Positions 8,121 to 55,565 of a stretch of 64,000 nt of DNA are shown here, piece by piece. The stretch comes from Thermodesulfobacteriota bacterium (GTDB taxonomy: Bacteria; Desulfobacterota; Binatia; UBA9968; JAJDTQ01). The notes under the pieces were generated by a model that was not told where the DNA came from, ran no database searches, and saw only the letters and a list, made by a program, of their open reading frames with translations. The stretch is from the NCBI GenBank assembly GCA_965116635.1, contig OZ220710.1:2010549-2074548 (forward strand). Direction: 5' to 3'. Made by a program: the position numbers and the translations under genes. Position 1 is the stretch's first letter; every line of letters begins with the position of its first letter.

Positions 8121-8722
8121 CGGTTACCGGGGGCCGGGGCGAACGGATCCCGACCCTTGGTCCGCATGAGGCCATAGAGGCAAAGGACGGCGCCGACGGT
8201 AATGAAACTGTCCGCCACGTTGAATGCCGGCCAGTGGTAGGCGTTCCAGTAGACGTCCACGAAATCGATCACCTCGCCGTAGAACACGCGGTCCGCCAGA
8301 TTTCCCAACGCCCCTGCCAGAATGAACGTCAACGACAGGATGAGCCCGGTATCCGTTTCCGCAAGGCGGCGCAGCAGGTGGATGACGAAGACGACGGCGA
8401 CCAGCGAGAAGGCGATCAGGGCATAGGAAGCCAGGGCCCGGCGTTGACCGGCCAGCAGCCCGAACGCGGCGCCGGTGTTACGGACGTGCGTCAGGTCCAC
8501 CCAGCCCTCGATCACCGGAATCGAGTGATGCAGCGGAATGGTATGATCGACGAGCAGCTTGGTGCCCTGATCGAGCAGCAGGATCGCGGCCAACAGGACG
8601 ACTATGCGTGCGCGTTTTCGGCCCGCGGTAAAGATCGTAACACCTCCGCGCAACGGGGGCAGACCCCCGGCTGGTCCGCCTGCGCTCCAACCCCCGGGTG
8701 ATATTTCCAGCACCGCTCGCAC
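8117..8722 (-). CDS. lspA: lipoprotein signal peptidase II
   Basis: LspA-like TM layout and motifs (NTGAAFG, GALGNLADR, FNVADSFI). Located immediately downstream of ileS as in the conserved ileS-lspA operon. The true start is probably internal (for example TTG near 8653), because the 8722 start would overlap ileS by about 120 nt. Confidence 0.75.
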   Translation of the reverse strand: MRAVLEISPGGWSAGGPAGGLPPLRGGVTIFTAGRKRARIVVLLAAILLLDQGTKLLVDHTIPLHHSIPVIEGWVDLTHVRNTGAAFGLLAGQRRALASYALIAFSLVAVVFVIHLLRRLAETDTGLILSLTFILAGALGNLADRVFYGEVIDFVDVYWNAYHWPAFNVADSFITVGAVLCLYGLMRTKGRDPFAPAPGNR

Positions 8723-11514
8723 TTTCCGCCCTCGGCCGGGTAAACCCCGATGGCGCCGCCCAGCAGCGTGCTGTCATAGCCCATTGCCTGTCCCGGCGCC
8801 CCGTCCGCGGCGCCGTCCCGCTTCTCCCCGGCACCGGTTCCGGGCTCCGGATACACCAGGTCGCCCGGCGGCGGCCCCGATGCCACCGCGGCCTGCGAGA
8901 CGATGAACACGTCCTCCCACGGCATCATCGCCGCGCCGCGCAGCAGCTCCTGAATCCCCGGGGCCTTCTCGTAAACGTCCGGATACAGCACCACCCGGGC
9001 GTCCAGGGAATGGCCGATGGCGCCGCATTGACGCGCCACCTCCAGGGCCTTCAACACCTCGCCGCGCAAATCCAGCCGGAGCTCCCATTCGGCCGCCAGC
9101 GCCGGGTCCGACAAGGTCTCGTCCGGTTCCGGAATGGGCGAGAGCAGGATGCTGTCCGGGCCTGACGCGGTCCCGGGGACGTGTTCCCAGATCTCCTCGG
9201 CGGTGAACGAGATGACCGGCGCCATCAGGTGCACCAGAGTTTGCAGGATGCCGTGGAGCGCGGTCTGGGCCGACCGCCGCGCGGCGGAATCGGACCCCTC
9301 GCAGTAGAGCCGGTCCTTGACGATGTCCAGGTAGAGGGAACTCAGGTCCACGCTGCAGTAGTTGTTCAACGCGTGATAGACGACGTGGAACTCGAACCTG
9401 TCGAAGGCCTCCAGACAGCGCCCCAGCAACCGCTGGTTGCGGTCAAGGATCCAGCGGTCCAGCGGCTCCAGGGCGTCGGGCTCCACCGCGTCGGCGGCGG
9501 GGTCGAAATCATGGAGGTTGCCGACGAGGAAACGGGCGGTGTTGCGCAGCCGCCGGTACGACTCCACCAGCCGCTTCAGGATCTCGTCGGAAATGCGGAC
9601 GTCGTCGCGGTAGTCCTCGGCCGCCACCCAGAGCCGGATGATGTCGGCGCCGAATTTCTTGATGATCTCCTGCGGCGCGGTGACGTTGCCCAGGGACTTG
9701 GACATCTTGTAGCCCTTGCCGTCCAGCACGAAGCCGTGGGTCAGCACGCCGTCATAAGGAGCCCGGCCGCGGTTGGCCACGGAGGTCAGGAGCGAGGTGT
9801 GGAACCAGCCCCGGTGCTGGTCGCTGCCTTCGAGGTAGAGGTCCGCCCTGCCGCCCAGCTCGGGACGGCGTTCCACCACCGCGGCATGGCTCACGCCGGA
9901 GTCGAACCAGACATCCAGGATGTCCTCTTCCTTGGAAAACCGCGTGGAGCCGCAACGCTGGCAGCAAAAACCCGGAGGCGCCAACTCTTCCGGCGGCCGC
10001 TCGAACCACGCGTCGGACCCTTCCCGCTCGAACAGCCCGGCCACGTGCTCGCACAACGCCTCGCTCAAGTGCGTCTCGCCGCAGTCCATGCAGTACAGCA
10101 CCGGGATCGGAACGCCCCAGGAACGCTGCCGCGAGATGCACCAGTCGGGACGGTTGGCCATCATGCCGGTGATGCGGTCCTGTCCCCAGGGCGGGATCCA
10201 CTGGACCTGCTCGATGGCGTCGAGGGAGCCTTGCCGCAAACCGGTGTGGGCCATGGAGATGAACCACTGCTCGGTGGCGCGGAACAGCACCGGCTTCTTG
10301 CAGCGCCAGCAATGCGGGTAGCTGTGATCGATTTCCTGGGACTTGAGCAGTCTGTTCTCTTCGCGGAGCCGGTCGATGATCCGGGGGTTGGCGTCGAAGA
10401 CCATCTGGCCTTGCAACTCCCCCGCCTCCGCGGTGAACCGGCCGTTGCCGTCCACCGGCGCGTAGGCGTCGAGGCCATAACGCTGGCCCGCCTCGAAGTC
10501 CTCGTGGCCGTGTCCCGGCGCCACGTGGACACATCCGGTGCCCTGCTCCGCGGTGACGAACTCCCCCAGGATGACGATGGACTCCCGATCGAGCCACGGG
10601 TGCGAGCAGACGATGCCCTCCAGCTCGGCCCCGGACCAGGAGCCTTCCAGCACGTCGAACTCCCCGGCCGCGTATCCGAAGACTTCCATCAGCGAGGACA
10701 GCAGCTCTTCCGCCACCACCAGCACCCCCGCGGGGGTGCGCACACTCCGGTACCGCATCCTCGGATGCAGCGCGATGGCCTGGTTCGCCGGCAGCGTCCA
10801 GGGCGTGGTGGTCCAGATGGCGAAGGCGGCGCCGGCGGCGTCCGGCAGCTTCCCCTTGGCGTCCTTGACCGGGAATTGCACGTAGACCGACGGGGTGGTC
10901 TGGTTGTCGTACTCGACCTCGGCCTCGGCCAGCGCCGTGGCGCAGGAAGCGCACCAGTAGACCGGCTTCTTGCTCCGGTACATGGAACCGCTGGCCATGA
11001 ACTTGCCGAGCTCGCGCACCTCGGTGGCTTCGTACTCGTAGTCGATGGTCCGGTAGGGTTCCGCCCAACGGCCCAGCACCCCCAGCCGCTTGAACTCCTC
11101 CCGCTGGACCCCGATGAACTTCTCCGCGTGGGCGCGGCACAGCTTGCGGACCTCGACCTTGCTAAGCCGGTTCTTCTTCTCCCGGCCCAGGCTCTTCTCC
11201 ACCTGAAGCTCGATGGGCAGCCCGTGACAGTCCCAGCCGGGGATGTAGGGCGTGCAGTAGCCTCTCATGCTTTTGTACTTGACGATGATGTCCTTGAGGA
11301 TCTTGTTGAGCGCGTGCCCGATGTGGATGCGCTCGTTGGCGTACGGCGGACCGTCGTGCAGGATGAACTTGGGACGCCCGAGATTGGCCTCCACCATCTT
11401 CGCGTGGATGTCCTCACGCTCCCACTTCTCCGCCTGAACCGGTTCCTTCTGCGGCAGGTTCCCCCGCATGGGAAACGTGGTCCTGGGGAGGTTGAGCGTG
11501 TCTTTGTAGTCCAT
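8602..11514 (-). CDS. ileS: isoleucine--tRNA ligase
   Basis: 970 aa with HIGH (PYANERIHIGHAL) and KMSKS (KMSKSLGN) motifs, a CP1 editing domain and a C-terminal zinc-binding CxxC...CxxC. Confidence 0.95.
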   Translation of the reverse strand: MDYKDTLNLPRTTFPMRGNLPQKEPVQAEKWEREDIHAKMVEANLGRPKFILHDGPPYANERIHIGHALNKILKDIIVKYKSMRGYCTPYIPGWDCHGLPIELQVEKSLGREKKNRLSKVEVRKLCRAHAEKFIGVQREEFKRLGVLGRWAEPYRTIDYEYEATEVRELGKFMASGSMYRSKKPVYWCASCATALAEAEVEYDNQTTPSVYVQFPVKDAKGKLPDAAGAAFAIWTTTPWTLPANQAIALHPRMRYRSVRTPAGVLVVAEELLSSLMEVFGYAAGEFDVLEGSWSGAELEGIVCSHPWLDRESIVILGEFVTAEQGTGCVHVAPGHGHEDFEAGQRYGLDAYAPVDGNGRFTAEAGELQGQMVFDANPRIIDRLREENRLLKSQEIDHSYPHCWRCKKPVLFRATEQWFISMAHTGLRQGSLDAIEQVQWIPPWGQDRITGMMANRPDWCISRQRSWGVPIPVLYCMDCGETHLSEALCEHVAGLFEREGSDAWFERPPEELAPPGFCCQRCGSTRFSKEEDILDVWFDSGVSHAAVVERRPELGGRADLYLEGSDQHRGWFHTSLLTSVANRGRAPYDGVLTHGFVLDGKGYKMSKSLGNVTAPQEIIKKFGADIIRLWVAAEDYRDDVRISDEILKRLVESYRRLRNTARFLVGNLHDFDPAADAVEPDALEPLDRWILDRNQRLLGRCLEAFDRFEFHVVYHALNNYCSVDLSSLYLDIVKDRLYCEGSDSAARRSAQTALHGILQTLVHLMAPVISFTAEEIWEHVPGTASGPDSILLSPIPEPDETLSDPALAAEWELRLDLRGEVLKALEVARQCGAIGHSLDARVVLYPDVYEKAPGIQELLRGAAMMPWEDVFIVSQAAVASGPPPGDLVYPEPGTGAGEKRDGAADGAPGQAMGYDSTLLGGAIGVYPAEGGKCERCWKYHPGVGAQADQPGVCPRCAEVLRSLPRAENAHA

Positions 11515-11647
11515 GAACTTCGTCCCTCACTTGCCGGCAAGCGACTTACGGAGCACCGAAACGACCATGAAAGATAATTGGTTCGGGCCGATGAGGCGGG
11601 CGTCAGGAGGACCGTCCGTGCTTGCATCCCTCCCGGAGGATTTCTAA

Positions 11648-11818
11648 CACAAAGCCGCGCCGGGAGTCTACGGGAAGTTGCGAATCGACCATGGGCCAGG
11701 CTATCGAGTGTATTACAAAAAGCAAGGCCGAAGGATCGTTGTTCTATTGGCTGGCGGCGAAAAGCGCTCTCAGACGAATGACATCAGAACCGCCTTGCGT
11801 CTAGCTCGAAATCTGTAG
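11648..11818 (+). pseudogene. truncated HigB/RelE-like addiction-module killer protein (C-terminal ~56 codons only)
   Basis: In-frame translation gives ...LRIDHGPGYRVYYKKQGRRIVVLLAGGEKRSQTNDIRTALRLARNL*, matching the conserved C-terminus of the toxin family paired with HigA-type antidotes. The frame is closed by TAA at 11645 and no N-terminal half is detectable. Not in the ORF track (under 60 aa). Confidence 0.5.
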
Positions 11819-11827
11819 GTACACGCC

Positions 11828-12160
11828 ATGACCAAGACTGTTACTACTCCCTACGATGTTGCCGAACACCTCCGCACCCCGGAGGGAATGGCTGCTTATT
11901 TGGAGGTTTGCCTTGAGGAGGCAAATGGAGATGCTGCGTTCATCGCCAAGGCGCTCGGCGACATAGCCCGTGCAAAGGGCATGTCTCAAGTGGCGCGTGA
12001 TGCCGGCCTATCTCGTGAAAGTCTTTACAAGGCGCTCTCTGGAGAGCGTACGCCTGCCTTTGACACAATCCTTAAGGTAATTGGTGCGCTGGGCTTGAAA
12101 TTGCACGCGGAAGCGGTTCTCGTCACTGACCCAACCGCCCAAAGCACTCCGAGTGACTGA
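11828..12160 (+). CDS. higA: addiction-module antidote protein (HigA family, XRE-like HTH)
   Basis: 110 aa. MTKTVTTPYDVAEHLRTPEGMAAYLE...FIAKALGDIARAKGMSQVARDAGLSRESLYKALSGERTPAFDTILKV is the canonical antidote sequence. It starts 10 nt after the toxin-remnant stop. Confidence 0.75.
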   Translation: MTKTVTTPYDVAEHLRTPEGMAAYLEVCLEEANGDAAFIAKALGDIARAKGMSQVARDAGLSRESLYKALSGERTPAFDTILKVIGALGLKLHAEAVLVTDPTAQSTPSD

Positions 12161-12550
12161 TGGCCCTACCGTCTCCACCTGTGCAACTCCTCTCCATGAC
12201 ACCGCGTGCAGTCCACTGTGGCTTTACATCGATCCCGCGGAAACCGACATACTATTGCGGAATCTGCGGCACACCCCCCCCGGCCACCTGAAACCCGGCA
12301 CCGCCCGCATCTTGCGGTATGCCTTGCCCGGTAGCCTTCTGTCTTCCCGTTGCCGTGCTCCCTTCAGTTGATGTAGGGAGTAGTGTACAAAATCACAAAG
12401 GGTTCGTCGTATTCTCTTGGGTTTCAAACTGAACGGCGCCGAGCCGAAGTACCGGCCCTGCATGATCAGATGAAACACGTTCTGGCGGGAGCGTTGCGAC
12501 GATGTCGTCGAGGACTGGAATCGTGCTCCGCCGCCACGGGAGGGCTGGCC

Positions 12551-12862
12551 ATGCACGCCGCAATCGCTGACAAGAAGGAAGACCTGGCGGAACTCTGCCG
12601 GCGCTACGGCGTAGCGCGGCTGGAAGTGTTCGGATCCGCGGCGCGCGGCACGGACTTCGATCCACAGTCCAGCGACGCCGACTTCCTCGTGGAGTTCAAT
12701 TCCGACGGCGTGTTGGCACCCTTCGACCAGTTCTTCGACCTAGCCGAGGCCTTGCGCCGCACCCTAGGCCGCCCGGTTGATCTTGTCGAGTCCGGCACGG
12801 TCCACAACCCGTATCTGCGTGCGGCCATCGAACGGTCGCGCGAACTCGTCTATGCTGGCTGA
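12551..12862 (+). CDS. nucleotidyltransferase (MNT-type antitoxin of HEPN/MNT pair)
   Basis: LEVFGSAARG...D.D motif (GS...D.D, Pol-beta-like NTase). ATG at 12551. Its stop overlaps the HepT start. Confidence 0.7.
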   Translation: MHAAIADKKEDLAELCRRYGVARLEVFGSAARGTDFDPQSSDADFLVEFNSDGVLAPFDQFFDLAEALRRTLGRPVDLVESGTVHNPYLRAAIERSRELVYAG

Positions 12863-13208
12863 TCCTCGCGTCCTGCTGTCGGATATCGACCAAGCCGGGG
12901 CGGATATCGAGCGGTTCATCGAAGGCATGGACCGCGGCGCCTATGCCGACGATGCGCTGACGCAGGCAGCGGTCGAACGCAAGTTCGAGATCATCGGCGA
13001 GGCATTGAACCGCCTGTAGAAGATCCGCCCTGATCTTGCCGAACGGATACCCCGTCACCGACGGATCATAGACTTCCGAAACCTGTTGATCCATGGTTAT
13101 GCAAGCGTGATGCCCGAGCGTGTCTGGGATAATGCCGAGAACCATCTGCCCGAGCTACGCCGGATAGTCCAAGCGCTGCTTGTCGAGTTGGGACCGCCGG
13201 ACGAATGA
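12852..13208 (+). pseudogene. HepT/DUF86 HEPN toxin interrupted by an in-frame TAG (13017-13019)
   Basis: Same frame before and after the amber codon. The downstream part encodes KIRPDLAERIPRHRRIIDFRNLLIHGYASV..., carrying the HEPN R-x4-H motif, so the catalytic motif lies after the stop. Confidence 0.6.
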
Positions 13209-13740
13209 TCGGGCTTTGGAGCAAGTCAACCTGTCCCAAAAAAAGGACGTCTATGGGGTTGCGTCCCGGTTCCGAGCGGGACCACAACCACTAAATTATG
13301 GGTGAGGACAATTCGAGGAGCAGGTCAGCGTTCTCCAGCCCTTCGATCACCACCGCCATCGTCTGCCGACGGTAGAAGCGCAGCACAACAGCCGGGAGTG
13401 GCTCCGAACCATCACAAGAGCATGCCGCCGCCCCCAGGGAAGCGTGGACGTCGCAAAGTCCACCTGCCCCTGCCGTCCCGCCGGCGTCTCGAACCGCACC
13501 GCCGCCCCCACCGGCTCCCGCGGCCGCACCGCCCCCCTCCCCCAGAAGTGGAACATTTCGATTGACACAAATGGGACATTTTCGGCTGACATTGACAGAT
13601 GTTGACGGCAACGAGGTGAGATGGCCGGGATACCTCGGCGGGGCTACCGCGAGGGGAACCGGGATTCTGTGCGTTGGCGCCGTTCACAGGGAGGCGCGTC
13701 CTGAGGACGAAGCACGTGACTCAGTGATGCGGCGGACGAA

Positions 13741-13778
13741 CACGGAGTTGGTGAACGCGCACGGAGTTGGTGAACGCG
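13741..13778. repeat. perfect tandem duplication, 2 x 19 bp (cacggagttggtgaacgcg)
   Basis: Read directly from the sequence. It lies in a non-coding-looking lower-GC stretch. Confidence 0.85.
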
Positions 13779-14182
13779 CATCGGCCAGGAGCCGGGTCGC
13801 GATGGAAATTCAATGGTCGTCTCAGACAAACGAGGAGACACTATGCCGGCAGGCGCGGTACGCGAAGTCGGGGGTTCGGTGTCTTTGGCTCTTCCGCCAC
13901 AGAGGCTCTCGACACGAGCCTCGGGATGCAGGACCCCGCCTTCTTCCGGCCGATATCCCGACTGTCGCGGGCAAAACCATGTGGCGGTTTCCTCGACGGC
14001 CCGGCGGCCGACCCAATCGCTTCCGTCATTGAAGCACGTTCATGCGCACGACCCAGAAATGAGCTGGTGCCTAATTGGTACCTGGCCGTTGAGCACTTCC
14101 AGCACCTCGGATCAAGCTACTTCCTAAACACGTGATTTAACATAGAAAATTTGTCAGATAGCTGGCGCGGGGAACTAGGTAA

Positions 14183-14269
14183 CCTTACCCCCACATACTC
14201 CTGGTCCTCATATTAATCTGCCGCATCGAAACCCACGTTCTTGTCGCCTTTATCGCCTACTGCCTGTTC
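14183..14269 (+). pseudogene. possible DDE transposase C-terminal remnant (IS4/IS1634-like)
   Basis: A short open frame encodes ...ICRIETHVLVAFIAYCLF, resembling the conserved C-terminal R[IV]..H[VI].[IV].F[IL]AY.L motif of IS4/IS1634/IS701-type transposases. No upstream transposase body is present. Very short, so weak. Confidence 0.25.
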
Positions 14270-14582
14270 GTGACTCCGGAAATCTCGCCCGTCCGTCCCC
14301 AGCCTCCCCCGTGCATCTTGGAAAACCTCCCTACTATACAGATGGCGGACGTCCATCGCTCCAAGACCGACGGCCGTCCTCTCGTCTTGCTCGCCATACC
14401 CGCCCCAACACGGGCCCGTCGGCTGGATTCACGCGCACCCCTGTGATATGAAACCCCGAATCCCGGCGGGCTTTCCGCCCGTTTCCATTCCCGCTGAAGC
14501 AGCGTTCCGCCTTTCCGTTCATCCGTATGAGCAACGAAACCCGGCGCGGGGCTCGGATCGGCGTTACCGAGGAGGAACCTCC

Positions 14583-15350
14583 ATGGCCAAGTCCCAAAAA
14601 GGCAGACCCGGTGCGCGCGAGCTCGGACGCCTCAAGAAAACCGTGGCCTTGGCCACCCGCATGCTCTTCCACCAGGGCCTTGCCGACTATCACGGCCACG
14701 TGAGCGCCCGGATTCCCGGCACCAACCGGCTGCTGATCAAGCCGGTGCTGGCGCCGCTGGGCTCCATCAAGAGCAAGGACATCATGGAGGTCGACATCGA
14801 CGACTACAAGAAGAACTGCGAGGCCAACTGGGCCAAGGCCGGCGACCAGAAGGCGGTGATCAAGCTCAAGGTCCCGCCCCGGGAGACCATGATCCACGCC
14901 GCCATCATGGAGGCCCGGCCGGACGTCAACTCGGTGGTCCATACGCACCAGCCGTTGGCCACGGCGTTTGCCGTGGCAGGCGTGCCGATCCGGCCCATCT
15001 ACAACCAGGCCGCCGCCTTCGCCCCCGAGACCCCCATTTTCCACAGCCCCCGGCTGATCTATACCGTCCAGGACGGCCTCGAAATAGCCGCGACGCTGGG
15101 CGAGTGCATGGCGATGCTGATGCAGGGACACGGCATCACCACGGTGGGCGACAGCGTGGAGCAGGCCGCCTCTCACGCCGTCTACCTCGAGCGGACGGCC
15201 CAAATGCAGTGGGTGGCCAGCACCATCGGACAGGCCGCGTCCATGCCCGGCCGCAACACCGCCATCATGGCGGCGACCAACAGCGGGCGGGCGCATCACG
15301 CGTTCGCGTATTTCACCGGCCTGATGCCCGACGAAATGAAGGAAGACTAG
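14583..15350 (+). CDS. class II aldolase/adducin family protein
   Basis: 255 aa with the aldolase-II fold signature (HGHVSARIP, HTHQP...). ATG at 14583 is preceded by GAGGAGG. The ORF-track start at 14448 is an upstream extension. Confidence 0.75.
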   Translation: MAKSQKGRPGARELGRLKKTVALATRMLFHQGLADYHGHVSARIPGTNRLLIKPVLAPLGSIKSKDIMEVDIDDYKKNCEANWAKAGDQKAVIKLKVPPRETMIHAAIMEARPDVNSVVHTHQPLATAFAVAGVPIRPIYNQAAAFAPETPIFHSPRLIYTVQDGLEIAATLGECMAMLMQGHGITTVGDSVEQAASHAVYLERTAQMQWVASTIGQAASMPGRNTAIMAATNSGRAHHAFAYFTGLMPDEMKED

Positions 15351-15436
15351 CCGTCCCGCGACGCGAACGAGATACGACCCACGGGCGGCCGGTCGCACGG
15401 GCCGCTTGAAACATCACACGACAAGGAAGGTGAAGC

Positions 15437-17005
15437 ATGGCTGAGGCGAACAGGCCGGAGTCGGCCGCGGGCCGTCCGATTCAGGATATCCGTGAGTGGC
15501 TGGATCGCGCGGAAGGGATCAACGAGCTGATTCAGATCGACAAGCCGGTGGACCGGGACGAGGAGATGAGCGCCATCACCTATCTGGTGGCCAAGCAGGA
15601 TCCGTCCCCGGCCATCCTCTTCGACAACCCCAAGGGGTATGAAGACAGCCCCATCGGCGCCCGGATGTTGTGGAACATCCTGGGGCCCAGCTCGAAACGC
15701 ATTGCCCTTACCATCGAGGAGCCGCCCGAAACGCCGACGCTGGAACTCATCCGGCGGCTCAAGGAGAAGATGAAGGACCGGATTCCGCCGCGCGAAGTGC
15801 CGGGGACCGAAGCCCCGGTGTTCGAGAACACCCTCAGCGGAGCGGATATCGACCTGGAGCAGTTGCCGATTCCCAGGCATTGGCCGCTGGACGGCGGCCG
15901 CTACGCGGGTACCGCCGACGCGGTCTTCACCCGCGACCCGGATTCCGGATACCTGAACGTCGGCACGTACCGCATGATGCTCCAGGGCAAGAACCAGGTG
16001 GGTCTCTACCTGTCGCCGGGCAAGGATGCGCGGCTTCACATCACCCGCTCTTGGGAACAAGGCAAGTCCGTGCCCGTGGCCGCGGCCTGGGGCATCGATC
16101 CGCTGTTCATGCTGGTGGGTTCCCAGACCTTTCCCAAGAACGTGTCGGAGTATGAGTTCGCCGGCGGCATCAAGGGCGAGGCGATCCCGGTGGTGCGCGC
16201 CCAGACCAGTGACCTGCTGCTGCCGGCCAACGCCGAGCTCGTGGTCGAAGGGGTCATCCACCCCAACTCGGTGAAGACCGAGGGGCCCTTCGGGGAGTTT
16301 CCCGGCTACTACGGCAGGCCGGAGGCGGGCTGCCCGCTGGTGGACATCACGCGGGTGCACTACCGCACCAACCCTGTCCTCACCAATGCCATCATGGCGG
16401 ACTACCCGTCCTGCGAGCAGAGCGGCTTTTTCGCCGTCATCCGCTCGGCCCGTATCTGGGACGACCTCGACAAGCTCGGCATCCCCGGCGTGCAGGGCGT
16501 CTACGCCCATCCGGCCGGAGCGGGAGGCTTCGGCATGACCGTCATCAGCCTGGAGCAGCGCTATGCCGGCCATGCCGCCCAGTGTCTGGCGCTGGCGGCC
16601 CAGGTGCCCGGCGGCGCCTACTACACCAAGTGGATCATCGCCGTGGACGAAGACATCGACCCCACGGACATGGACCAGGTCATCTGGGCCATGAGCAGCC
16701 GCTGCCATCCCATCGAGGACATCGACATCCTGCGCAACACCTGGAGCACGTGGCTGGATCCCACCCAGAACCCGCCGGAGGAACGGCCTTACGGCTCCAA
16801 GGCGTTGATCAACGCGTGCAAGGAGCACCGCTACCTGCCGGTGTTTTCCAAGCGGACCACGTTGAGCCGGGAGATGTACGACCAGGTGGCGGGACGCTGG
16901 AAAGAACTCGGGCTTCGGGGAACCATTCCCACGGTCCGGGCCTTCGAAGAAGAAAAGAAGGTCGTGTACCACGAGCAGGGCGGATTCGAGCCCGGGAAGA
17001 AATAG
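15437..17005 (+). CDS. UbiD-family (prFMN-dependent) decarboxylase
   Basis: 522 aa with UbiD-family length and motifs (PIPRHWPLDGGRYAGT..., EGPFGEFPGYYG). No UbiX/flavin prenyltransferase is present in the window. Confidence 0.85.
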   Translation: MAEANRPESAAGRPIQDIREWLDRAEGINELIQIDKPVDRDEEMSAITYLVAKQDPSPAILFDNPKGYEDSPIGARMLWNILGPSSKRIALTIEEPPETPTLELIRRLKEKMKDRIPPREVPGTEAPVFENTLSGADIDLEQLPIPRHWPLDGGRYAGTADAVFTRDPDSGYLNVGTYRMMLQGKNQVGLYLSPGKDARLHITRSWEQGKSVPVAAAWGIDPLFMLVGSQTFPKNVSEYEFAGGIKGEAIPVVRAQTSDLLLPANAELVVEGVIHPNSVKTEGPFGEFPGYYGRPEAGCPLVDITRVHYRTNPVLTNAIMADYPSCEQSGFFAVIRSARIWDDLDKLGIPGVQGVYAHPAGAGGFGMTVISLEQRYAGHAAQCLALAAQVPGGAYYTKWIIAVDEDIDPTDMDQVIWAMSSRCHPIEDIDILRNTWSTWLDPTQNPPEERPYGSKALINACKEHRYLPVFSKRTTLSREMYDQVAGRWKELGLRGTIPTVRAFEEEKKVVYHEQGGFEPGKK

Positions 17006-17227
17006 CCGGGCGACCCCGCGCGCGGTCTTTTGCGATGCGTAAAACCGCGATACGTCGGCGAATTTCACGGACGGGCACAGGCGTCTTGCCCATGCCGGAC
17101 CGCTGTGATATTCTTGGCCCGCTTTTGATTTAGCGACATTGGCGGATCAGTCGACGGTCAAGGCGTAACCGACGGTCGGCGTAGTTTCTGGAACAGGGCC
17201 TTTCGAAGCCGGAAGAAAAGGTGTCGG

Positions 17228-17560
17228 ATGGATATTCAAGAGGAAACCAAGGGATCACTTGTGGTGCTGGCGCCTAGCGGGCGCGTCGACGGTTTCACCA
17301 GCCCCGAGCTCGAGAAGCGGATCTCGGAGATCATCGAGCGCGGCGACCACCGGGTGCTGCTGGACTGCGCGAACATGGAATACATCAGCAGCGCCGGCTT
17401 GCGGGTGGTCCTGGTGAGCGCGAAGAAGTGCCAGAAGGAAGGCGGCAAGCTGGCGGTGTGCTCGCTGCAGCCTTCGTGCAAATCCGTGATGGAAGTCAGC
17501 GGATTCCTCAACATGCTCGAATACCACGACACCCGTGATGCCGCCCTGGCGGCAGAATAG
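17228..17560 (+). CDS. STAS-domain anti-sigma-factor antagonist
   Basis: 110 aa SpoIIAA-like protein with conserved phospho-Ser region (LDCANMEYISSAGLRVV). Confidence 0.8.
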   Translation: MDIQEETKGSLVVLAPSGRVDGFTSPELEKRISEIIERGDHRVLLDCANMEYISSAGLRVVLVSAKKCQKEGGKLAVCSLQPSCKSVMEVSGFLNMLEYHDTRDAALAAE

Positions 17561-17573
17561 GCGAGGCGGCGCC

Positions 17574-18227
17574 ATGCTTACATTCACTGAAGAAATCATG
17601 CTGCTGATGCTGGACGACGACGGTCTGTTCCTGCCGATCCGCGGTGGGGCCGTGGAGCACGTCCTGGTGGGGGCCGTGTTGATGGATCTGGCCTTCGCCA
17701 ACCGCATCGACACCGACCCCGAGAAGCTTCTGGTGATCGACTCGACGCCCACCGGCGACTCGCTGCTGGACGTTCCCCTGGAGCGCCTCGCCACCAGCGG
17801 GGAGACCATGAACACCAAGGGGTGGGTGGAGGTGCTGGCCCGGGAGCAGGCCGCCGAGATTCGCCAGCAGGCCATGAACGGTCTGATCGGCGCCGGAATT
17901 CTCGAGGCCAAGGACGAGAAGTTCCTCTGGGTCTTCCGTTCCCGGCGCTACCCCACCATCGATGGACGCGCGGAACGCGAGGTCAAGCTGCGCATGGAAG
18001 ATGTGCTGCTCTCCGACGATATGCCGGATCCGCGGGACGTCGCGCTGATCTGTCTCGTCGACGCCTGCGACATACTCAACGACATATTCTCGGAGCGGGA
18101 GATGGAACGGGTCCGCCCGCGCATCGAGCAGCTCCGCATGATGGATCTCATCGGCCGGGAAGTGGGCAGCGTCATCGCCGACATCGAAGAGTCCATCACC
18201 ATGGCCATGGCCCAGGTGGCCCACTAG
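17574..18227 (+). CDS. GPP34/GOLPH3-like family protein
   Basis: About 217 aa. Layout is MLTFTEEIMLLMLDDDGL....G..L..LA. Its ATG at 17574 lies 14 nt after the STAS stop. Confidence 0.55.
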   Translation: MLTFTEEIMLLMLDDDGLFLPIRGGAVEHVLVGAVLMDLAFANRIDTDPEKLLVIDSTPTGDSLLDVPLERLATSGETMNTKGWVEVLAREQAAEIRQQAMNGLIGAGILEAKDEKFLWVFRSRRYPTIDGRAEREVKLRMEDVLLSDDMPDPRDVALICLVDACDILNDIFSEREMERVRPRIEQLRMMDLIGREVGSVIADIEESITMAMAQVAH

Positions 18228-18499
18228 CAACCCGCCCACCCGTCTCCGCGGGCCGGCACCCGGAAGCGTCGGCCCCCAGTATCGTTCTCCCGAACTCGAC
18301 ATCGAGCAAGGGCGGCGTGGCAACCACGCCGCCCGCGAACCCCACCACCACCGCGTCCATGGCGACGGGGCGCCCGCACCTCTTGTCGTCCCCGGGGACA
18401 GCCGTCCAGGGCTGAGCCTCGACCTCCCGCGGCAAGACTTCGTCTCTTCCCGGAATTATCGTTAAAGTTTGGCTCCGGCCTGCCGATTGGACTAGATGT

Positions 18500-19834
18500 A
18501 TGCGGCGATCGCGAACCGACATCATCCTGCTCGTCTCGCTTTGCGTCTTTCTCGTCGCCACTCTCACCTGGGCGTCCATCGCGGAGGTGGAGTTGGCCGC
18601 GGTGGCGCCGGGACGCATCGTTCCAACGGGACAAGTGAAGGTCATCCGATCCTTCGAGCAGGGCAAGGTCCGGCGCATCGCCGTCGAGGAAGGGAGCCTG
18701 GTCGAGCGCGGCAGTGTCCTGATCGAGCTCGATACCACCCTGGTGGACGCCGAGCTCTCCAAGCTCACGGCGGAGCTCCAGATCAAGTCCGTGGAAGCCG
18801 CGCGCCTGGAGGCGACCCTGGCCTGGCGCAACTCCCGGGTCTTCCGCCCGCCCGCCGGAGCCCCGCCGGAGATCGTCTCGGTCAACGAGCAACTGCTGGC
18901 GGATCAGATCGCGGCGCACCGGGCGCAACTCCACGAACTGGACGGGGTGATGGCGGAACGGCGGGCGCAGCTCCAAACCATCGAGGCGGTGCTGGCCAAG
19001 CACGGCAAGTTGTTGCCCATCCTGCGCGAGAGGACCGCCATGCGCGAGACGCTCTACCGCACGAACCACGGTTCCAGGCTCGCTCTCTTCGAGGAACAGG
19101 AACGGCTGGTGGAGCTCGAGGGCAACATCACGCTCCGGCGACGGGAGTCGGCCGAGGTCAAGGCCTCTCTGGCGGCGATCCGGGCAAGGAAGGAACGGGC
19201 CGTGTCCGAGTTCTACCGTGAACGCCGGGCGCTTCTGGCATCGGTTCGGGAAAGGATGATCGTGCTGCGGCAGGACATCCGCCAGACCGGCGAGCACCGC
19301 GCCCGGCACACACTGCTCTCCCCGGTGGACGGCGTGGTCCAGGACCTCGCCGTGCACACGGAAAACGGCATGGTGGAACCTGGCGCGCGGCTTATGGTGA
19401 TCGTCCCCCGGAACGCCGGCATCCGGGTGGAGGCCTACGTGGCCAACACCGACATCGGCTTTGTGAAGCCGGGCCAGCGGGTCACCCTCAAGGTCACGAC
19501 CTTCGACTTCCGCCGCTACGGCGCCATCGAGGGAACCGTGAGCCACATCGGCAAGGATGCGGTAACCACCGGAACCCAGGCCGGCGCTCCGGCGCCGACG
19601 AGCATCGACGGCGCGCCGGCGACCGCGCAGTCAACGCGGGCCGGACCCGCCGGACCCGTGTTCAAGGCGCTCATCAAGCTCGATCAAACCCACATGGAGA
19701 TCGAGGGACGGAAGATCGAGCTGTTGCCCGGAATGTCCTCGGAGGCGTCGTTCATCCTCGGAAGCCAACGGCTCATCGAATACCTCCTGCAACCCCTTCG
19801 CGGTTACCGGCAGGATGCGTTCCGGGAGAAGTGA
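18500..19834 (+). CDS. HlyD-family type I secretion periplasmic adaptor
   Basis: 444 aa with an N-terminal TM anchor, long coiled-coil and C-terminal beta-barrel/lipoyl-like region (VVQDLAVHTENGMVEPGARLMVIVP). No cognate ABC exporter or TolC is present in the window. Confidence 0.8.
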   Translation: MRRSRTDIILLVSLCVFLVATLTWASIAEVELAAVAPGRIVPTGQVKVIRSFEQGKVRRIAVEEGSLVERGSVLIELDTTLVDAELSKLTAELQIKSVEAARLEATLAWRNSRVFRPPAGAPPEIVSVNEQLLADQIAAHRAQLHELDGVMAERRAQLQTIEAVLAKHGKLLPILRERTAMRETLYRTNHGSRLALFEEQERLVELEGNITLRRRESAEVKASLAAIRARKERAVSEFYRERRALLASVRERMIVLRQDIRQTGEHRARHTLLSPVDGVVQDLAVHTENGMVEPGARLMVIVPRNAGIRVEAYVANTDIGFVKPGQRVTLKVTTFDFRRYGAIEGTVSHIGKDAVTTGTQAGAPAPTSIDGAPATAQSTRAGPAGPVFKALIKLDQTHMEIEGRKIELLPGMSSEASFILGSQRLIEYLLQPLRGYRQDAFREK

Positions 19835-19860
19835 CGCATCCTCACCAGGAGCCATGAATC

Positions 19861-20829
19861 ATGGGCAATGATCCGAAAGACTTTCCAAGGACGACCGATC
19901 CCGCGGCATGGGAGCCCGACGACCTGGAGCGGTCGGAAGCCTGGCGTCATGAGTTTACCGGGGGCGAGCTGGCGGAACTGCTGGCGTCAGCGAGGGATGG
20001 CCGCGACGGCGAACCGCGCCGGGCGCCCGACCTGCCCCTGCTGGCATCACAGATGGCCCGGACGGCCCGGGAGCTCAAAGCGGGTCTCGGCCTTCAGGTC
20101 CTGCGCGGGCTGCCCGCCGGACGGCTGAACCACCAGGAGGTTGCTCATGCCTTCGCCGCCTTGAACCAACGACTGGGCCAGCCGGTGGAGCAACCGGGAG
20201 GCGTCAAGCTGGCCCACGTCCGGGCCGAGCCCGGGGACAACGGGAAACTGGGCTTTCGCGCCACGGGAGCACTTCCCTTCCACGCCGACCCGGAGGACGT
20301 CATCGGATTCCTGTGCTTGCGGCCCGCCCTCAAGGGCGGAATCCGCAGATTCGCCAGCGCCGCCACCGTCTACAATATCCTGGTCACGGAACATCCCGAC
20401 CTGTTGCAAGTGCTGACCCGGCCGTATCACGTGGCGCTGACGCATCCGCATCCGGATCACGGGCATCGGTGGACCCGGCTGCCCTTCTTGAGCATTCGGG
20501 ACGGCGTGTTTCACGCCTGTGCCTATCCGGTCCACATCCGGCAAGCGCAGCGGCTGGCCGGGGTTCCCGAATTGACCGTGGCACAGACCCGCGCCCTCGA
20601 CGTCTTCAATACCGTGGCCGACCAGGTCGCGGTGTCCCTGGAACTCGAGCCGGGCGACATCGAGTACTTCAACAATCACGTGATCCTGCATACGCGCACC
20701 CGGTTCGCCGGCGGCGGGGCGGGCCGCCATCTCTTGAGGGTGTGGCTGTCCCTCGCCGGCTTCAGGCCGCTGCACCCGGAGCATCCCATACGTCTCGGTC
20801 GGAGAATCAACCGCGCCGGCGCCGGGTAG
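19861..20829 (+). CDS. TauD/TfdA-family Fe(II)/2-oxoglutarate dioxygenase
   Basis: 322 aa with HxD...H facial triad context (FHADPED ... ILHTRTRF) and clavaminate-synthase-like length. Confidence 0.7.
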   Translation: MGNDPKDFPRTTDPAAWEPDDLERSEAWRHEFTGGELAELLASARDGRDGEPRRAPDLPLLASQMARTARELKAGLGLQVLRGLPAGRLNHQEVAHAFAALNQRLGQPVEQPGGVKLAHVRAEPGDNGKLGFRATGALPFHADPEDVIGFLCLRPALKGGIRRFASAATVYNILVTEHPDLLQVLTRPYHVALTHPHPDHGHRWTRLPFLSIRDGVFHACAYPVHIRQAQRLAGVPELTVAQTRALDVFNTVADQVAVSLELEPGDIEYFNNHVILHTRTRFAGGGAGRHLLRVWLSLAGFRPLHPEHPIRLGRRINRAGAG

Positions 20830-20857
20830 ATGGCGCCCGGGCGGCTTCGGAACCCCG

Positions 20858-22441
20858 TCAGTCGCTCGCCAGCAAACGCCCCCGGCCCCATTCCTCGTGA
20901 CGGAAGATCAGCGACTTGATCACCACCGGCACCGCCTTGGCGTCCGGCAATTCCTCGCCGATATCGACGAAGTCGAAGTCCTTGAGGTCGATGCCGTCGA
21001 TGGAGATGACGCCGGTCCCGGGAAGGATCTCCTTGTCGATGATGTTGCCCACCAGCTTGGCGATATCGGCATCGAAGACGAGCACCAGTTTCTGTCCCTG
21101 GCGGAGATGCTCCTTCATCCCCTCCACAACACCCGTGGCCAGTGTCTTGATGAGAGGATACGAGGGGCCCAGTTCCCAGTGCAGCGCCAGCGCCGCCGCG
21201 CGGTCGCCGTCGGTCATGTCGAAACGCTGCAGCGCGCTTTCGATGGAACTGCGGACGTCCTCCGTGGTCAACGGCTCGGTCTGGCGGAAGTGTGGCGTAA
21301 TCACCTGGAGGTTCCGCAGCGGCAACACCGACTCATCGGACAGGTAAATCGTGTTGCCGCTCACCTGCACGGTGTACTGGGACGCGCCGATGACGGTGGC
21401 GCGGATACGCACCTCGGGCTCCTTGAACTCCCACGACTCGCGGGTGGCCAGTTCCACCGCCCCGGCGCGGATCTTCCGCCCCACGTGATTGCCCAGGTCG
21501 CCCTTGTCCGCGGTCTCGTAACCATAGATATACTCCGAGACCCCGCCGGAGAACTGGATGCAGTGAATGGGCTCCTCGTAAGAGAGCGCCGGCGTCAGCA
21601 TGATCTTCTGGGTCAGGGGCGACAGCGGCCCGCGCCCCAGCACCTCCAGGAGGCACCCGCTCAAGGTGCCGGCCATGCGTTCCTTGTCCGCCTCCCCCAG
21701 CGTCTGGCCCAGGGCCAACGACACGCCGCTGGCCTCACCAATGCGCGCCCCCGCATCCTCGAGCCGGTCGATCTTCTCGCTCTCGTCCAGCGCCACCAGC
21801 CGGGCGCCCACCTCCAGCGCGGCCGTGTCCACCACCTGTCCGCCGCGGGTGACGGCGATCTTGCTGGTGCCGCCGCCGACGTCCACGTTCATGCACGCGA
21901 TGTCGCCGTCGCGGGTGGACACCTCCACCGCGCCGGAGCCGTAGGCGGCCAGGATCGCCTCGAGATTGTGGCCGGCGGTGGCGCACACGAACTTGCCGGC
22001 CTCCTCGGCGAACAACGCGGCGATGGCCTCCGCGTTCTTCTTCTTGGCGGCCTCTCCGGTGACGATCAGCGCGCCGGTGTCGATGTCCTGCCGTGTGAGG
22101 CCGGCCAGGGCGTAGGCTTCGTGAATGAACTCGTTGAGCTTCTCCGTGTCGATGGTCAGTTTGTCGACGTAGGGGGTCAACAGGATCGGCGACTCGTAGA
22201 CGATCTCCCGCTTCACCACCACGAAACGGCTCGACAGGGATATGCCCTGCCGGCGGAGCACCAACCGGGAGAAGATCAGATGGGACGTGGACGAGCCGAT
22301 GTCGATGCCGACCGAAGTCAGCGAGATGCGCTCGGACCGCCACATGGGGTGGTCTTCATCGGGCAGAGGCACATCATCGTGGTCGTGGTCTTCATGCCCT
22401 TCGTGACAGACGAGGGGCAGTTCCGTAAAGTCGCGGTCCAT
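20858..22441 (-). CDS. EutA-like ASKHA-fold ATPase (ethanolamine ammonia-lyase reactivase family)
   Basis: LTSVGIDIGSSTSHLIFSRL plus DVGGGTSKIAV actin-like phosphate motifs match EutA. Start chosen at MDRDFTEL (22441). No eutBC in the window. Confidence 0.6.
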   Translation of the reverse strand: MDRDFTELPLVCHEGHEDHDHDDVPLPDEDHPMWRSERISLTSVGIDIGSSTSHLIFSRLVLRRQGISLSSRFVVVKREIVYESPILLTPYVDKLTIDTEKLNEFIHEAYALAGLTRQDIDTGALIVTGEAAKKKNAEAIAALFAEEAGKFVCATAGHNLEAILAAYGSGAVEVSTRDGDIACMNVDVGGGTSKIAVTRGGQVVDTAALEVGARLVALDESEKIDRLEDAGARIGEASGVSLALGQTLGEADKERMAGTLSGCLLEVLGRGPLSPLTQKIMLTPALSYEEPIHCIQFSGGVSEYIYGYETADKGDLGNHVGRKIRAGAVELATRESWEFKEPEVRIRATVIGASQYTVQVSGNTIYLSDESVLPLRNLQVITPHFRQTEPLTTEDVRSSIESALQRFDMTDGDRAAALALHWELGPSYPLIKTLATGVVEGMKEHLRQGQKLVLVFDADIAKLVGNIIDKEILPGTGVISIDGIDLKDFDFVDIGEELPDAKAVPVVIKSLIFRHEEWGRGRLLASD

Positions 22442-22574
22442 TCGACGGGGTCCTTTCGATGGGGTGGTTGCGGGGAAAATGCGGATGAAACCGGCATGAT
22501 AGCAGAACGCCCGGTGAGTTGCCAGATTGACCGAAGTACCGGCCACGCCGGGCTGCCGGTCCGCGGCGGGACGC

Positions 22575-22604
22575 TCTTGTGAATTCTGGGAAAAGTTCTA
22601 GAAT
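22575..22604 (+). promoter_or_regulatory. sigma-70-like promoter with embedded palindrome in the divergent intergenic region
   Basis: TCTTGT/TTGTGA ... TAGAAT with a 15-18 nt spacer. The AT-rich palindrome GAATTCTGGGAAAAGTTCTAGAAT lies between the divergent EutA-like and large-membrane-protein genes. Confidence 0.25.
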
Positions 22605-34928: not shown

Positions 34929-34997
34929 GTGAACTTCCTCCTCTTGTTGTGTTGTTCCCGCGGTGTCGTGCAACCGCCGGCGGGGTTGGAACCCGCC

Positions 34998-49466: not shown

Positions 49467-49470
49467 CGAG

Positions 49471-51730: not shown

Positions 51731-51733
51731 CTT

Positions 51734-55562: not shown

Positions 55563-55565
55563 TCT

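What the first reader, a model, noticed from the sequence alone, without database searches (positions are those of the whole stretch)
12852..13208. HepT/HEPN toxin gene carries an in-frame amber codon upstream of its Rx4-6H catalytic motif while the MNT antitoxin is intact
The HepT frame is continuous across a TAG at 13017-13019. The motif RNLLIHGY (R-x4-H) lies in the codons after the TAG.

The MNT partner (GS...D.D nucleotidyltransferase motif) is intact and overlaps the HepT start.

Either the toxin has been inactivated by a nonsense mutation, a step in toxin-antitoxin decay that leaves an orphan antitoxin, or the stop is a sequencing/assembly error. Programmed read-through is much less likely.
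Basis: seen in the sequence. Interest (0 to 1): 0.55.

Follow-up and report, generated by a model that had tools for sequence, protein, structure and literature searches.

The report
Dead HepT toxin gene, nonsense mutation
A small toxin gene of a common bacterial toxin-antitoxin pair was switched off by one C-to-T change (Gln codon CAG to stop codon TAG); the change is real and shared by a whole sponge-symbiont population, but this kind of toxin decay is ordinary.

Summary
Window 12852-13208 (+) is a 118-codon HepT-like (DUF86/HEPN) reading frame with an in-frame TAG at 13017-13019 (codon 56). The R76-x4-H81-x-Y83 motif lies after the stop. A 103-aa MNT gene (12551-12862) overlaps the HepT start by 11 nt and is intact.

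The closest intact homologues (94-97% identical, all 118 aa) have Gln (CAG) at codon 56. The lesion is therefore a single C>T nonsense mutation.

It is not a sequencing error. Nine independent contigs from nine other assemblies are syntenic with the window at 98-98.7% identity, and all carry the same TAG.

Recoding is unlikely. TAG is the most used stop codon in the window, and codon 56 is a variable position (Q/H/R/S/L).

Within the TAG lineage, polymorphisms are mostly non-synonymous: HepT 4:1 and MNT 6:1. One strain has lost a catalytic Asp of MNT. Divergence from intact relatives is mostly synonymous.

The locus sits in a small decaying islet that also holds a 5'-truncated RelE/ParE toxin and an IS21 fragment. 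An intact, integrase-linked paralogous cassette (~92% nt identity) co-occurs in the same samples and in one MAG.

Verdict: this is ordinary decay of a toxin-antitoxin module, and interest is low.

The parts
12551..12862 (+). MNT (minimal nucleotidyltransferase) antitoxin gene, 103 aa, uninterrupted. The GS...DxD motif is at 12632-12682 (G28, S29, D42, D44).
   Evidence: Pfam PF01909 at 8.2e-11 and PF18765 at 6.5e-09. It has the same length as all homologues and is 95-97% identical to the MNT of intact cassettes. PADLOC candidate PDC-S09 matches at 3e-33.
12852..13208 (+). HepT-like (DUF86/HEPN) toxin pseudogene: a 118-codon frame interrupted at codon 56.
   Evidence: PF01934 at 2e-21 across the stop. 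There are 1386 homologues, nearly all 118 aa, and the best is 97% identical.
13017..13019 (+). In-frame TAG (Gln56 to stop). The ancestral codon is CAG, so this is a C>T transition at 13017.
   Evidence: CAG is present in L001-L007 and L098-L106. TAG is present in the window and in L008 and L089-L096.
12852..13019 (+). The only product expected from this gene: a 55-aa N-terminal fragment. It holds helices 5-23, 28-32 and most of 35-58 of the HEPN bundle.
   Evidence: This exact 55-aa product is on record as NCBI MCY4440584.1, named 'DUF86 domain-containing protein'. Helix positions come from the structure model of the 97%-identical intact homologue.
13077..13100 (+). Untranslated RX4HXY motif (R76 NLLI H81 G Y83): the catalytic Arg and His, plus the Tyr that MntA AMPylates in characterised systems.
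   Evidence: Read directly from the sequence. The role of the motif is taken from PMC7641770.
12300..13211 (+). Extent of the mobile MNT-HepT cassette, that is, the homology shared with copies in unrelated genomic contexts.
   Evidence: blastn matches of L001, L003, L004 and L007 start at 12300-12357 and end at 13211-13260. Flanks outside these limits are unrelated.
11675..11818 (+). Neighbouring 5'-truncated RelE/ParE (HI1419-type) toxin remnant. Only residues 50-96 of a 96-aa protein are present.
   Evidence: TIGR02683 matches profile positions 49-94 of 95 only. tblastn with the 96%-identical full-length homologue P0151 finds only residues 50-96.
11828..12160 (+). Intact HI1420-type HTH antitoxin, partner of the truncated toxin.
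   Evidence: TIGR02684 at 2.3e-34 and PF21716 at 1.2e-29.
13347..13592 (-). IS21-family transposase fragment downstream of HepT.
   Evidence: NF033546 at 3e-05, profile positions 99-152 of 294 only.

Best explanation
**What it is.** This is a chromosomal copy of a mobile MNT-HepT (HEPN/DUF86) toxin-antitoxin cassette. Its toxin gene has been killed by a single CAG>TAG (Gln56>stop) transition.

**Effect on the product.** Translation ends after 55 residues, before helix 69-81, which carries the catalytic R76-x4-H81 and the AMPylation-target Tyr83, and before the last helix (88-113). No active RNase can therefore be made. The first in-frame standard start codon after the stop (TTG at 13086, Leu79) lies beyond Arg76, so re-initiation cannot rescue the gene.

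**History.** The mutation arose once in the ancestor of a species-level population of a marine-sponge symbiont and is present in every sampled member. Since then both genes of the pair appear to have drifted. The locus lies in a small islet between ileS and a class II aldolase gene. The islet is being eroded: it also holds a truncated RelE/ParE toxin, an IS21 fragment and deletion polymorphisms.

**Shown.**
- The stop codon and its ancestral state.
- Its presence in independent assemblies.
- Normal use of TAG as a terminator.
- Family membership and fold.

**Inferred.**
- Loss of toxicity.
- Neutral drift after inactivation.
- The AMPylation mechanism of the ancestral pair.
For: - **Frame and family.** The in-frame TAG and the family match across it are established.
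- **Ancestral state.** The nearest intact homologues (97% and 94% identical) have Gln at codon 56, and the DNA shows CAG in 7 or more unrelated loci. The TAG is one of only two non-synonymous changes fixed on the window lineage, alongside 4 synonymous ones.
- **Independent support.** Nine contigs from nine other assemblies are 98.0-98.7% identical to the window over 1-11 kb and carry the same TAG. They come from JGI Ga0209020 and 3300002222, ENA ERZ27241788/794/795/796/797, and NCBI GCA_026710965.1 and GCA_001753035.1.
- **TAG is a normal stop.** It ends 26 of 52 high-GC3 ORFs in the window, including ileS. It also ends 7 of 12 independently called genes, not counting the HepT fragment, in the conspecific contig L092.
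- **Relaxed constraint.** Within the TAG lineage HepT has 4 non-synonymous and 1 synonymous polymorphism. Divergence from intact relatives is 3-4 non-synonymous to 13-17 synonymous (Fisher p = 0.02). MNT has 6:1, including D44H in the DxD motif of L090.
- **Fold.** The AlphaFold model of the 97%-identical intact homologue has pLDDT 90. The top 21 Foldseek PDB hits are all HepT/HEPN toxins (TM 0.56-0.67). Codon 56 falls at the end of helix 35-58.
- **Decaying surroundings.**
- **Literature.** Decay of chromosomal toxin-antitoxin systems by nonsense mutations, and abundant orphan antitoxins, are documented (PMC7167474; PMC7192599).
Against: - No reads, transcripts or proteins were examined.
- The polymorphism counts are tiny (5 and 7 sites). 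Four or five of the seven MNT changes are a tight cluster in one MAG and could be a local assembly artefact.
- The 62 codons downstream of the stop are still free of further stops or frameshifts in all ten sequences. That is expected for a recent event at 2% divergence or less, but it does not prove neutrality.
- Only 64 kb of the genome could be scanned for a suppressor tRNA.
Confidence: 0.87

Rival explanations
1. The TAG is a sequencing or assembly error, and the real gene is intact.
For: The window seems to come from a single 5.1-Mb contig, which suggests a long-read assembly, and such assemblies can carry systematic base errors. In relatives the site is CTGCAG, a palindromic motif that could be methylated.
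Against: Nine other contigs carry the same TAG at the same syntenic locus. They come from nine different short-read or other assemblies (MEGAHIT k141, JGI, NCBI MAG, the MKWU01 Illumina assembly). Each differs from the window by 1.3-2% elsewhere.
Confidence: 0.01
2. The TAG is decoded, so full-length HepT is made constitutively or conditionally. Routes would be programmed read-through, pyrrolysine, a host suppressor tRNA, or a phage-borne TAG>Gln suppressor tRNA.
For: - The ancestral residue is Gln, the amino acid inserted by the code-15 phage suppressor tRNAs (PMC9523058 and PMC10879173).
- The downstream frame is still open in all ten sequences.
- The genome outside the 64-kb window was not searched for tRNA-CUA.
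Against: - TAG terminates about half of the genes here, so a constitutive host suppressor would be very costly.
- The only tRNA in the window is tRNA-Pro(GGG).
- Codon 56 is a variable surface position (Q18/H13/R4/S1/L1 in 37 homologues), not a site that would need a special residue.
- Polymorphism in the TAG lineage looks unconstrained.
- No other recognisable gene in the window has an in-frame stop.
- Rfam found no recoding element.
Confidence: 0.03
3. The locus is retained for a function rather than being mere debris. The intact MNT, possibly with the 55-aa HepT stub, would serve as spare immunity (anti-addiction or cross-neutralisation) against the 96%-identical HepT of the paralogous integrase-linked cassette.
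For: - The MNT ORF is full-length in all seven TAG-lineage contigs that cover it, and it is 97% identical to the paralogue's MNT.
- The intact paralogue co-occurs in 7 of the 9 other assemblies with the TAG copy, and in the same MAG, GCA_026710965.1.
- Reciprocal recombinant junctions (L089 and L095 versus L097) suggest that both copies sit in one replicon.
- Anti-addiction roles for orphan antitoxins have been proposed (PMC7192599).
Against: - The paralogue brings its own MNT.
- MNT polymorphism in the TAG lineage is 6 non-synonymous to 1 synonymous, and one strain has D44H in the catalytic DxD.
- No member of the same 90%-identity protein cluster (cluster representative P0001) is recorded on the 5.1-Mb contig that carries the window's own MNT.
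- MntA-type neutralisation is enzymatic, so extra copies are not obviously needed.
Confidence: 0.09

Closest known systems
HepT/MntA type VII toxin-antitoxin system (Shewanella oneidensis SO_3166/SO_3165, PDB 5YEP/6M6U; Aphanizomenon flos-aquae HEPN/MNT, PDB 7AE2-7AE9)
   Same: - The gene order is the same: an MNT gene is followed by an overlapping HEPN/DUF86 gene.
- The toxin frame carries the RX4HXY motif, and the antitoxin carries a GS...DXD nucleotidyltransferase motif.
- The predicted fold of the intact homologue matches these structures best.
   Different: - Sequence identity to the solved proteins is only 12-20%.
- NCBIfam equivalog scores are below cut-off: 38 versus 60 bits for both proteins.
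- MNT spacing is GS-X12-DXD rather than X10.
- Above all, the toxin here is truncated at codon 56, so the system cannot work as a toxin-antitoxin pair.
Decaying chromosomal toxin-antitoxin loci and orphan antitoxins (for example ccdO157 decay in E. coli; orphan antitoxins in Klebsiella and E. coli)
   Same: The toxin is inactivated by a nonsense mutation while the antitoxin ORF persists. The locus sits at a conserved chromosomal position within an islet of mobile-element debris. This matches the pattern described in PMC7167474 and PMC7192599.
   Different: The toxin-antitoxin class differs: an enzymatic MNT antitoxin rather than a type II protein-binding one. The host also differs: an uncultured sponge symbiont.
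PADLOC phage-defence candidate PDC-S09
   Same: The MNT matches the PDC-S09 models end to end (3e-33).
   Different: The HepT read-through matched no PADLOC model at E <= 0.001. PDC-S09 is a candidate, not a validated defence system.

Membership tests
HepT-like HEPN RNase toxin (Pfam PF01934 / DUF86) | Profile match above Pfam's gathering score over the whole domain | tested here: met
   76.4 bits against a cut-off of 23.5, profile positions 1-119 of 120, on the conceptual read-through.
HepT-like HEPN RNase toxin (Pfam PF01934 / DUF86) | RX4HXY motif (catalytic Arg and His plus the AMPylated Tyr) | tested here: met
   R76-NLLI-H81-G-Y83 is present in the frame. It lies downstream of the stop and is therefore not translated.
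HepT-like HEPN RNase toxin (Pfam PF01934 / DUF86) | Uninterrupted ORF of family-typical length (118 aa in this subfamily) | tested here: not met
   TAG at codon 56. The homologues listed are nearly all 118 aa. The window therefore holds a pseudogene of the family, not a functional member.
HepT-like HEPN RNase toxin (Pfam PF01934 / DUF86) | Helical HEPN fold like solved HepT toxins | tested here: met
   The model of the 97%-identical intact homologue P0001 has pLDDT 90.4. The top 21 Foldseek PDB hits are HepT/HEPN toxins, with probability 1.00 and TM 0.56-0.67.
HepT-like HEPN RNase toxin (Pfam PF01934 / DUF86) | NCBIfam equivalog NF047751 (HepT_toxin) score at or above cut-off | tested here: not met
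   38.3 bits against a cut-off of 60. This is a distant subfamily, not an equivalog of the characterised proteins.
HepT-like HEPN RNase toxin (Pfam PF01934 / DUF86) | RNase activity and growth inhibition | not testable with these tools
   Requires expression of the CAG revertant.
MntA-type MNT antitoxin (type VII toxin-antitoxin) | Nucleotidyltransferase domain above the Pfam cut-off | tested here: met
   PF01909 at 42.6 bits against 21, and PF18765 at 36.3 bits against 26.9.
MntA-type MNT antitoxin (type VII toxin-antitoxin) | GSX10DXD catalytic motif | tested here: inconclusive
   G28-S29, then 12 residues, then D42-A43-D44. The catalytic residues are present, but the spacing is X12 rather than the X10 described in PMC7641770.
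MntA-type MNT antitoxin (type VII toxin-antitoxin) | NCBIfam equivalog NF047752 score at or above cut-off | tested here: not met
   38.7 bits against a cut-off of 60.
MntA-type MNT antitoxin (type VII toxin-antitoxin) | Encoded immediately upstream of, and translationally coupled to, a HEPN gene | tested here: met
   11-nt overlap, ATGCTGGCTGA.
MntA-type MNT antitoxin (type VII toxin-antitoxin) | AMPylates the conserved Tyr of its HepT | not testable with these tools
   Biochemical assay needed.
TAG-recoding (pyrrolysine or suppressor) gene | A TAG-decoding tRNA (CUA anticodon) in the genome | tested here: inconclusive
   None in the 64-kb window; the only tRNA is tRNA-Pro(GGG). The rest of the roughly 5.1-Mb genome is not available.
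TAG-recoding (pyrrolysine or suppressor) gene | The in-frame TAG aligns with a conserved or special residue, and TAG is avoided as a terminator | tested here: not met
   The position is variable (Q/H/R/S/L) in homologues. TAG ends 26 of 52 ORFs and 7 of 12 called genes.

The most novel reading that the evidence does not exclude
The TAG might be a conditional switch rather than a lesion. The ancestral codon is Gln, and some phages bring TAG>Gln suppressor tRNAs when they recode their late genes. Infection by such a phage would then restore exactly the wild-type HepT RNase, turning the 'pseudogene' into an abortive-infection trap that senses code-15 phages. The evidence does not strictly exclude this: the downstream frame is still open in all ten sequences, and the mutation is fixed in the population. 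The excess of non-synonymous polymorphism, the decay of the surrounding islet and the damaged MNT in one strain all argue against it.
Probability: 0.02. Interest if true: 0.85.

Novelty: already known. Interest (0 to 1): 0.13.

Why it matters
As a finding it matters little. Toxin genes of chromosomal toxin-antitoxin modules are often lost through nonsense mutations, and antitoxins commonly outlive them.

The practical value is for annotation. The 55-aa 'DUF86 domain-containing protein' already in NCBI (MCY4440584.1) is the stub of a pseudogene. This MNT-HepT pair should not be counted as a functional toxin-antitoxin or defence system in this sponge symbiont.

The population data give a small, clean example of the order of events in toxin-antitoxin decay. 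The toxin is hit first and the mutation is fixed. The antitoxin and the flanks then start to erode, while an intact paralogue persists elsewhere and recombines with the dead copy.

Tried and rejected
**Searches that found nothing**
- Exact-product look-ups of the window's MNT, IleRS and HI1420 antitoxin found no record. The MNT was later found by the cluster look-up.
- A 39-nt pattern around the stop found nothing in the GTDB species-representative genomes. The window's species is therefore not a representative there.
- IleRS gave only 61% identity to the best genome, a Candidatus Binatia MAG. Taxonomy therefore stays vague; NCBI labels the conspecific MAG 'Deltaproteobacteria bacterium'.
- Single-sequence phmmer against PDB found nothing. 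A profile of the family gave only weak hits (E about 0.1), though to the right proteins. The fold search was needed to confirm them.
- Rfam (E <= 1) found no RNA element in 11000-15000.
- The promoter scan found no sigma-70-like promoter, and the terminator scan found only one site, fewer than in shuffled sequence.

**Ideas considered and rejected**
- Re-initiation giving an active C-terminal fragment. The first in-frame ATG/GTG/TTG after the stop is TTG at 13086 (Leu79), which lies past Arg76. One pipeline's 46-aa call in L090 would start at an ATA codon.
- A second in-frame stop problem elsewhere in the window. The only two in-frame junctions between coding-like ORFs, at 25954 and 28661, separate unrelated genes.
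- An in-frame TAA in the neighbouring RelE/ParE toxin. The upstream 'frame' is not homologous at all, so that gene is 5'-truncated, not nonsense-mutated.

Full report
**1. The observation**

Window 12852-13208 (+) translates to a 118-codon frame with one internal stop, TAG at 13017-13019 (codon 56). The read-through product matches Pfam PF01934 (Ribonuclease HepT-like) over profile positions 1-119 of 120 (E = 2e-21, 76 bits). Each half also matches on its own (1.4e-07 and 7e-12). The motif R76-NLLI-H81-G-Y83 lies after the stop.

The upstream gene (12551-12862, 103 aa) is a minimal nucleotidyltransferase (PF01909 at 8e-11) with G28-S29...D42-A-D44. Its TGA overlaps the HepT ATG (ATGCTGGCTGA).

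**2. What the stop replaced**

A search of the 5.8-billion-protein collection gave 1386 homologues. Nearly all are 118 aa, and the best are 97% and 94% identical. In an alignment of 37 of them, codon 56 is Q (18), H (13), R (4), S (1) or L (1). The flanking N53-R54-L55 and P60 are nearly invariant.

The DNA of the closest relatives shows CAG where the window has TAG. With six intact copies as outgroup, the window lineage has fixed 4 synonymous and 2 non-synonymous changes in HepT: G33D and Q56stop. The lesion is therefore one C>T transition at 13017.

**3. Is it real?**

Raw reads are not available, but independent assemblies are.

- A pattern scan of JGI metagenomes found contig Ga0209020_1001071 (L008). 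It is 98.6% identical to the window over 11 kb (window 12803-23883) and carries the TAG.
- Exact look-ups of the 55-aa product and of its E24G variant found eight more contigs: ENA ERZ27241788/794/795/796/797, JGI 3300002222, NCBI GCA_026710965.1 and GCA_001753035.1. They are 98.0-99.2% identical to the window over the stretches they share with it; two of them (L089, L095) are recombinant upstream of HepT (see section 6). Seven have the same downstream genes (class II aldolase, UbiD, STAS, and so on); the other two (L095, L096) are too short to reach them. All carry the TAG.
- NCBI already lists the stub as MCY4440584.1, 'DUF86 domain-containing protein [Deltaproteobacteria bacterium]'. The window's own MNT sequence is recorded on a single 5,108,957-bp contig, probably the source of the window.
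- GCA_001753035.1 (MKWU01) is the Illumina assembly of the Aplysina aerophoba sponge metagenome (PMC5649159). The population is therefore a sponge symbiont.

A sequencing error is excluded for practical purposes.

**4. Is TAG read as a stop here?**

Yes.

- Of 52 ORFs with coding-like composition (GC3 >= 0.72) in the window, 26 end in TAG, including ileS.
- In the conspecific contig L092, 7 of 12 independently called genes (not counting the HepT fragment) end in TAG.
- The only tRNA in the window is tRNA-Pro(GGG).
- No other recognisable gene in the window has an in-frame stop. The two in-frame ORF junctions found separate unrelated genes.
- Rfam finds nothing in the region.

Recoding or read-through is therefore very unlikely, although only 64 kb of about 5.1 Mb could be examined for suppressor tRNAs.

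**5. Consequence for the protein**

An AlphaFold model of the 97%-identical intact homologue (pLDDT 90.4) has helices at 5-23, 28-32, 35-58, 60-63, 69-81 and 88-113. Its 21 best Foldseek matches in the PDB are all HepT/HEPN toxins of MNT-HEPN pairs (5YEP, 6M6U/W, 7BXO, 7AE2-9), with TM 0.56-0.67.

The stop falls at the end of helix 35-58. It removes the helix that carries R76/H81/Y83 and the final helix. In the characterised S. oneidensis system, RX4H is the RNase site and the Tyr of RX4HXY is the residue that MntA poly-AMPylates (PMC7641770).

The first in-frame ATG/GTG/TTG after the stop is TTG at 13086 (Leu79), which is beyond Arg76. No catalytically competent product is expected. This is an inference from sequence, not a measurement.

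**6. Evolution after the hit**

Against intact relatives, the window's HepT shows pN/pS of 0.08-0.18 and MNT shows 0.07-0.21.

Within the TAG lineage (ten sequences), HepT has 4 non-synonymous polymorphisms (E24G, V111A, D117E, E118K) and 1 synonymous one. Compared with the divergence counts, Fisher p = 0.02.

MNT has 6 non-synonymous polymorphisms and 1 synonymous one. They include a cluster in the NCBI MAG (L090) that changes D44 of the catalytic DxD to His. The counts are small, but both genes look relaxed. The antitoxin is intact in the window, yet it is probably not being maintained.

**7. Surroundings**

The cassette lies in a 2.9-kb islet between ileS (8602-11514, minus strand) and a class II aldolase gene (14448-15350). 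The islet also holds:

- A RelE/ParE (HI1419-type) toxin remnant. Only residues 50-96 of 96 are present, at 96% identity to full-length homologues. Its HI1420 antitoxin is intact.
- An IS21 transposase fragment and a weak CoiA-like nuclease fragment.

Conspecific contigs show a 391-nt deletion (11974-12364) that cuts the HI1420 antitoxin, and a 62-nt deletion (13437-13498). The islet is eroding.

**8. A paralogue**

The homology shared with copies elsewhere runs from about 12300 to about 13211, so the MNT-HepT pair is a mobile cassette of about 0.9 kb.

An intact copy at about 92% nucleotide identity has these features:
- Its HepT is P0124 (NCBI MCY4438853.1) and its MNT is MCY4438854.1, which is 97% identical to the window's MNT.
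- In most contigs it lies next to a tyrosine integrase.
- It is found on 14 contigs.
- It occurs in 7 of the 9 other assemblies that hold the TAG copy, and in the same MAG, GCA_026710965.1.

Contigs L089 and L095 join the paralogue's left flank and MNT to the TAG-bearing HepT and the aldolase flank. L097, from the same sample as L089, is the reciprocal product. All cross-overs fall in the 100-nt stretch (12803-12901) where the two copies are identical. This indicates either a real inversion between two inverted copies in one replicon or an assembly cross-over. I cannot tell which.

No intact HepT belonging to the same 90%-identity protein cluster (cluster representative P0001) is recorded on the 5.1-Mb contig. 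The window's own strain may therefore lack the paralogue.

**9. Comparison with what is known**

The pair works like, and at Pfam and fold level belongs with, the HepT/MntA (HEPN/MNT) type VII toxin-antitoxin systems.

- It falls below the NCBIfam equivalog cut-offs for both proteins (38 versus 60 bits).
- Its MNT motif spacing is X12, not X10.
- The toxin is a pseudogene.

I therefore file it as a decayed member of the broad family, not as a functional HepT/MntA system. Decay of chromosomal toxin-antitoxin loci by nonsense mutations and the abundance of orphan antitoxins are well documented (PMC7167474, PMC7192599).

**10. Verdict**

The finding is ordinary.

The most novel reading that remains is that a TAG>Gln phage suppressor tRNA would restore the wild-type toxin, so the locus would act as a trap for code-15 phages (PMC9523058, PMC10879173). 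The signs of drift make this improbable (about 2%).

Noticed in passing
window 11675-11818 (+) and 11828-12160 (+): The adjacent second toxin-antitoxin module also has a dead toxin. Only residues 50-96 of a 96-aa RelE/ParE (HI1419-type) toxin remain, and the N-terminal half is absent in every frame. The HI1420 HTH antitoxin is intact. Conspecific contigs L092 and L097 carry a 391-nt deletion (window 11974-12364) that truncates this antitoxin as well.
   Followed up: yes
window 13347-13592 (-), 13562-14032 (+); L094: Downstream of HepT there is an IS21-family transposase fragment (NF033546 at 3e-05, profile positions 99-152 of 294) and a weak CoiA-like nuclease fragment. A conspecific contig has a 62-nt deletion at 13437-13498.
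   Followed up: partly
L089, L095, L097 versus window 12300-13211: Reciprocal recombinant junctions join the TAG-bearing cassette and an intact, integrase-linked paralogous cassette. The cross-overs fall in a 100-nt identical stretch (12803-12901). This suggests a chromosomal inversion between two inverted MNT-HepT copies in some strains, or an assembly cross-over.
   Followed up: partly
window 48447-57068 (-): A complete Mza defence system lies in a low-GC (55-59% against 64-68%) island. It comprises a C5 cytosine methylase, MzaB (HATPase), MzaC (Z1), MzaD (DUF4420) and MzaE (AIPR), with PADLOC E-values down to 0.
   Followed up: partly
window 57065-59122 (-): A 685-aa protein combines N-terminal ankyrin repeats with sigma-70 regions 2 and 4. 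This is an unusual fusion. Ankyrin repeats fit a sponge-symbiont lifestyle.
   Followed up: no
whole window; L092: TAG is the most frequent stop codon: 26 of 52 coding-like ORFs in the window, and 7 of 12 independently called genes in a conspecific contig. This is unusual for a 64% GC bacterium, where TGA normally dominates and TAG is the rarest stop. It is unexplained.
   Followed up: partly
window 8602-11514 (-): The IleRS is only 61% identical to the best match among 185,579 GTDB species representatives, a Candidatus Binatia MAG. The organism is therefore a deep, poorly sampled lineage. NCBI labels a conspecific MAG 'Deltaproteobacteria bacterium', and related contigs come from the sponge Aplysina aerophoba.
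   Followed up: partly
window 34972-35064 (-): The only tRNA predicted in the window, tRNA-Pro(GGG), is 93 nt long with the anticodon at position 39. That is longer than a standard tRNA, so there may be an insertion or an imprecise prediction.
   Followed up: no
L090 (NCBI JAPOQB010000423.1), equivalent to window 12680-12697: Six substitutions clustered within 18 nt of the MNT gene change SDADFLVEF to SDAHCLVDV, with loss of the second catalytic Asp. This could be real decay, micro-conversion from a divergent copy, or a local assembly artefact.
   Followed up: partly
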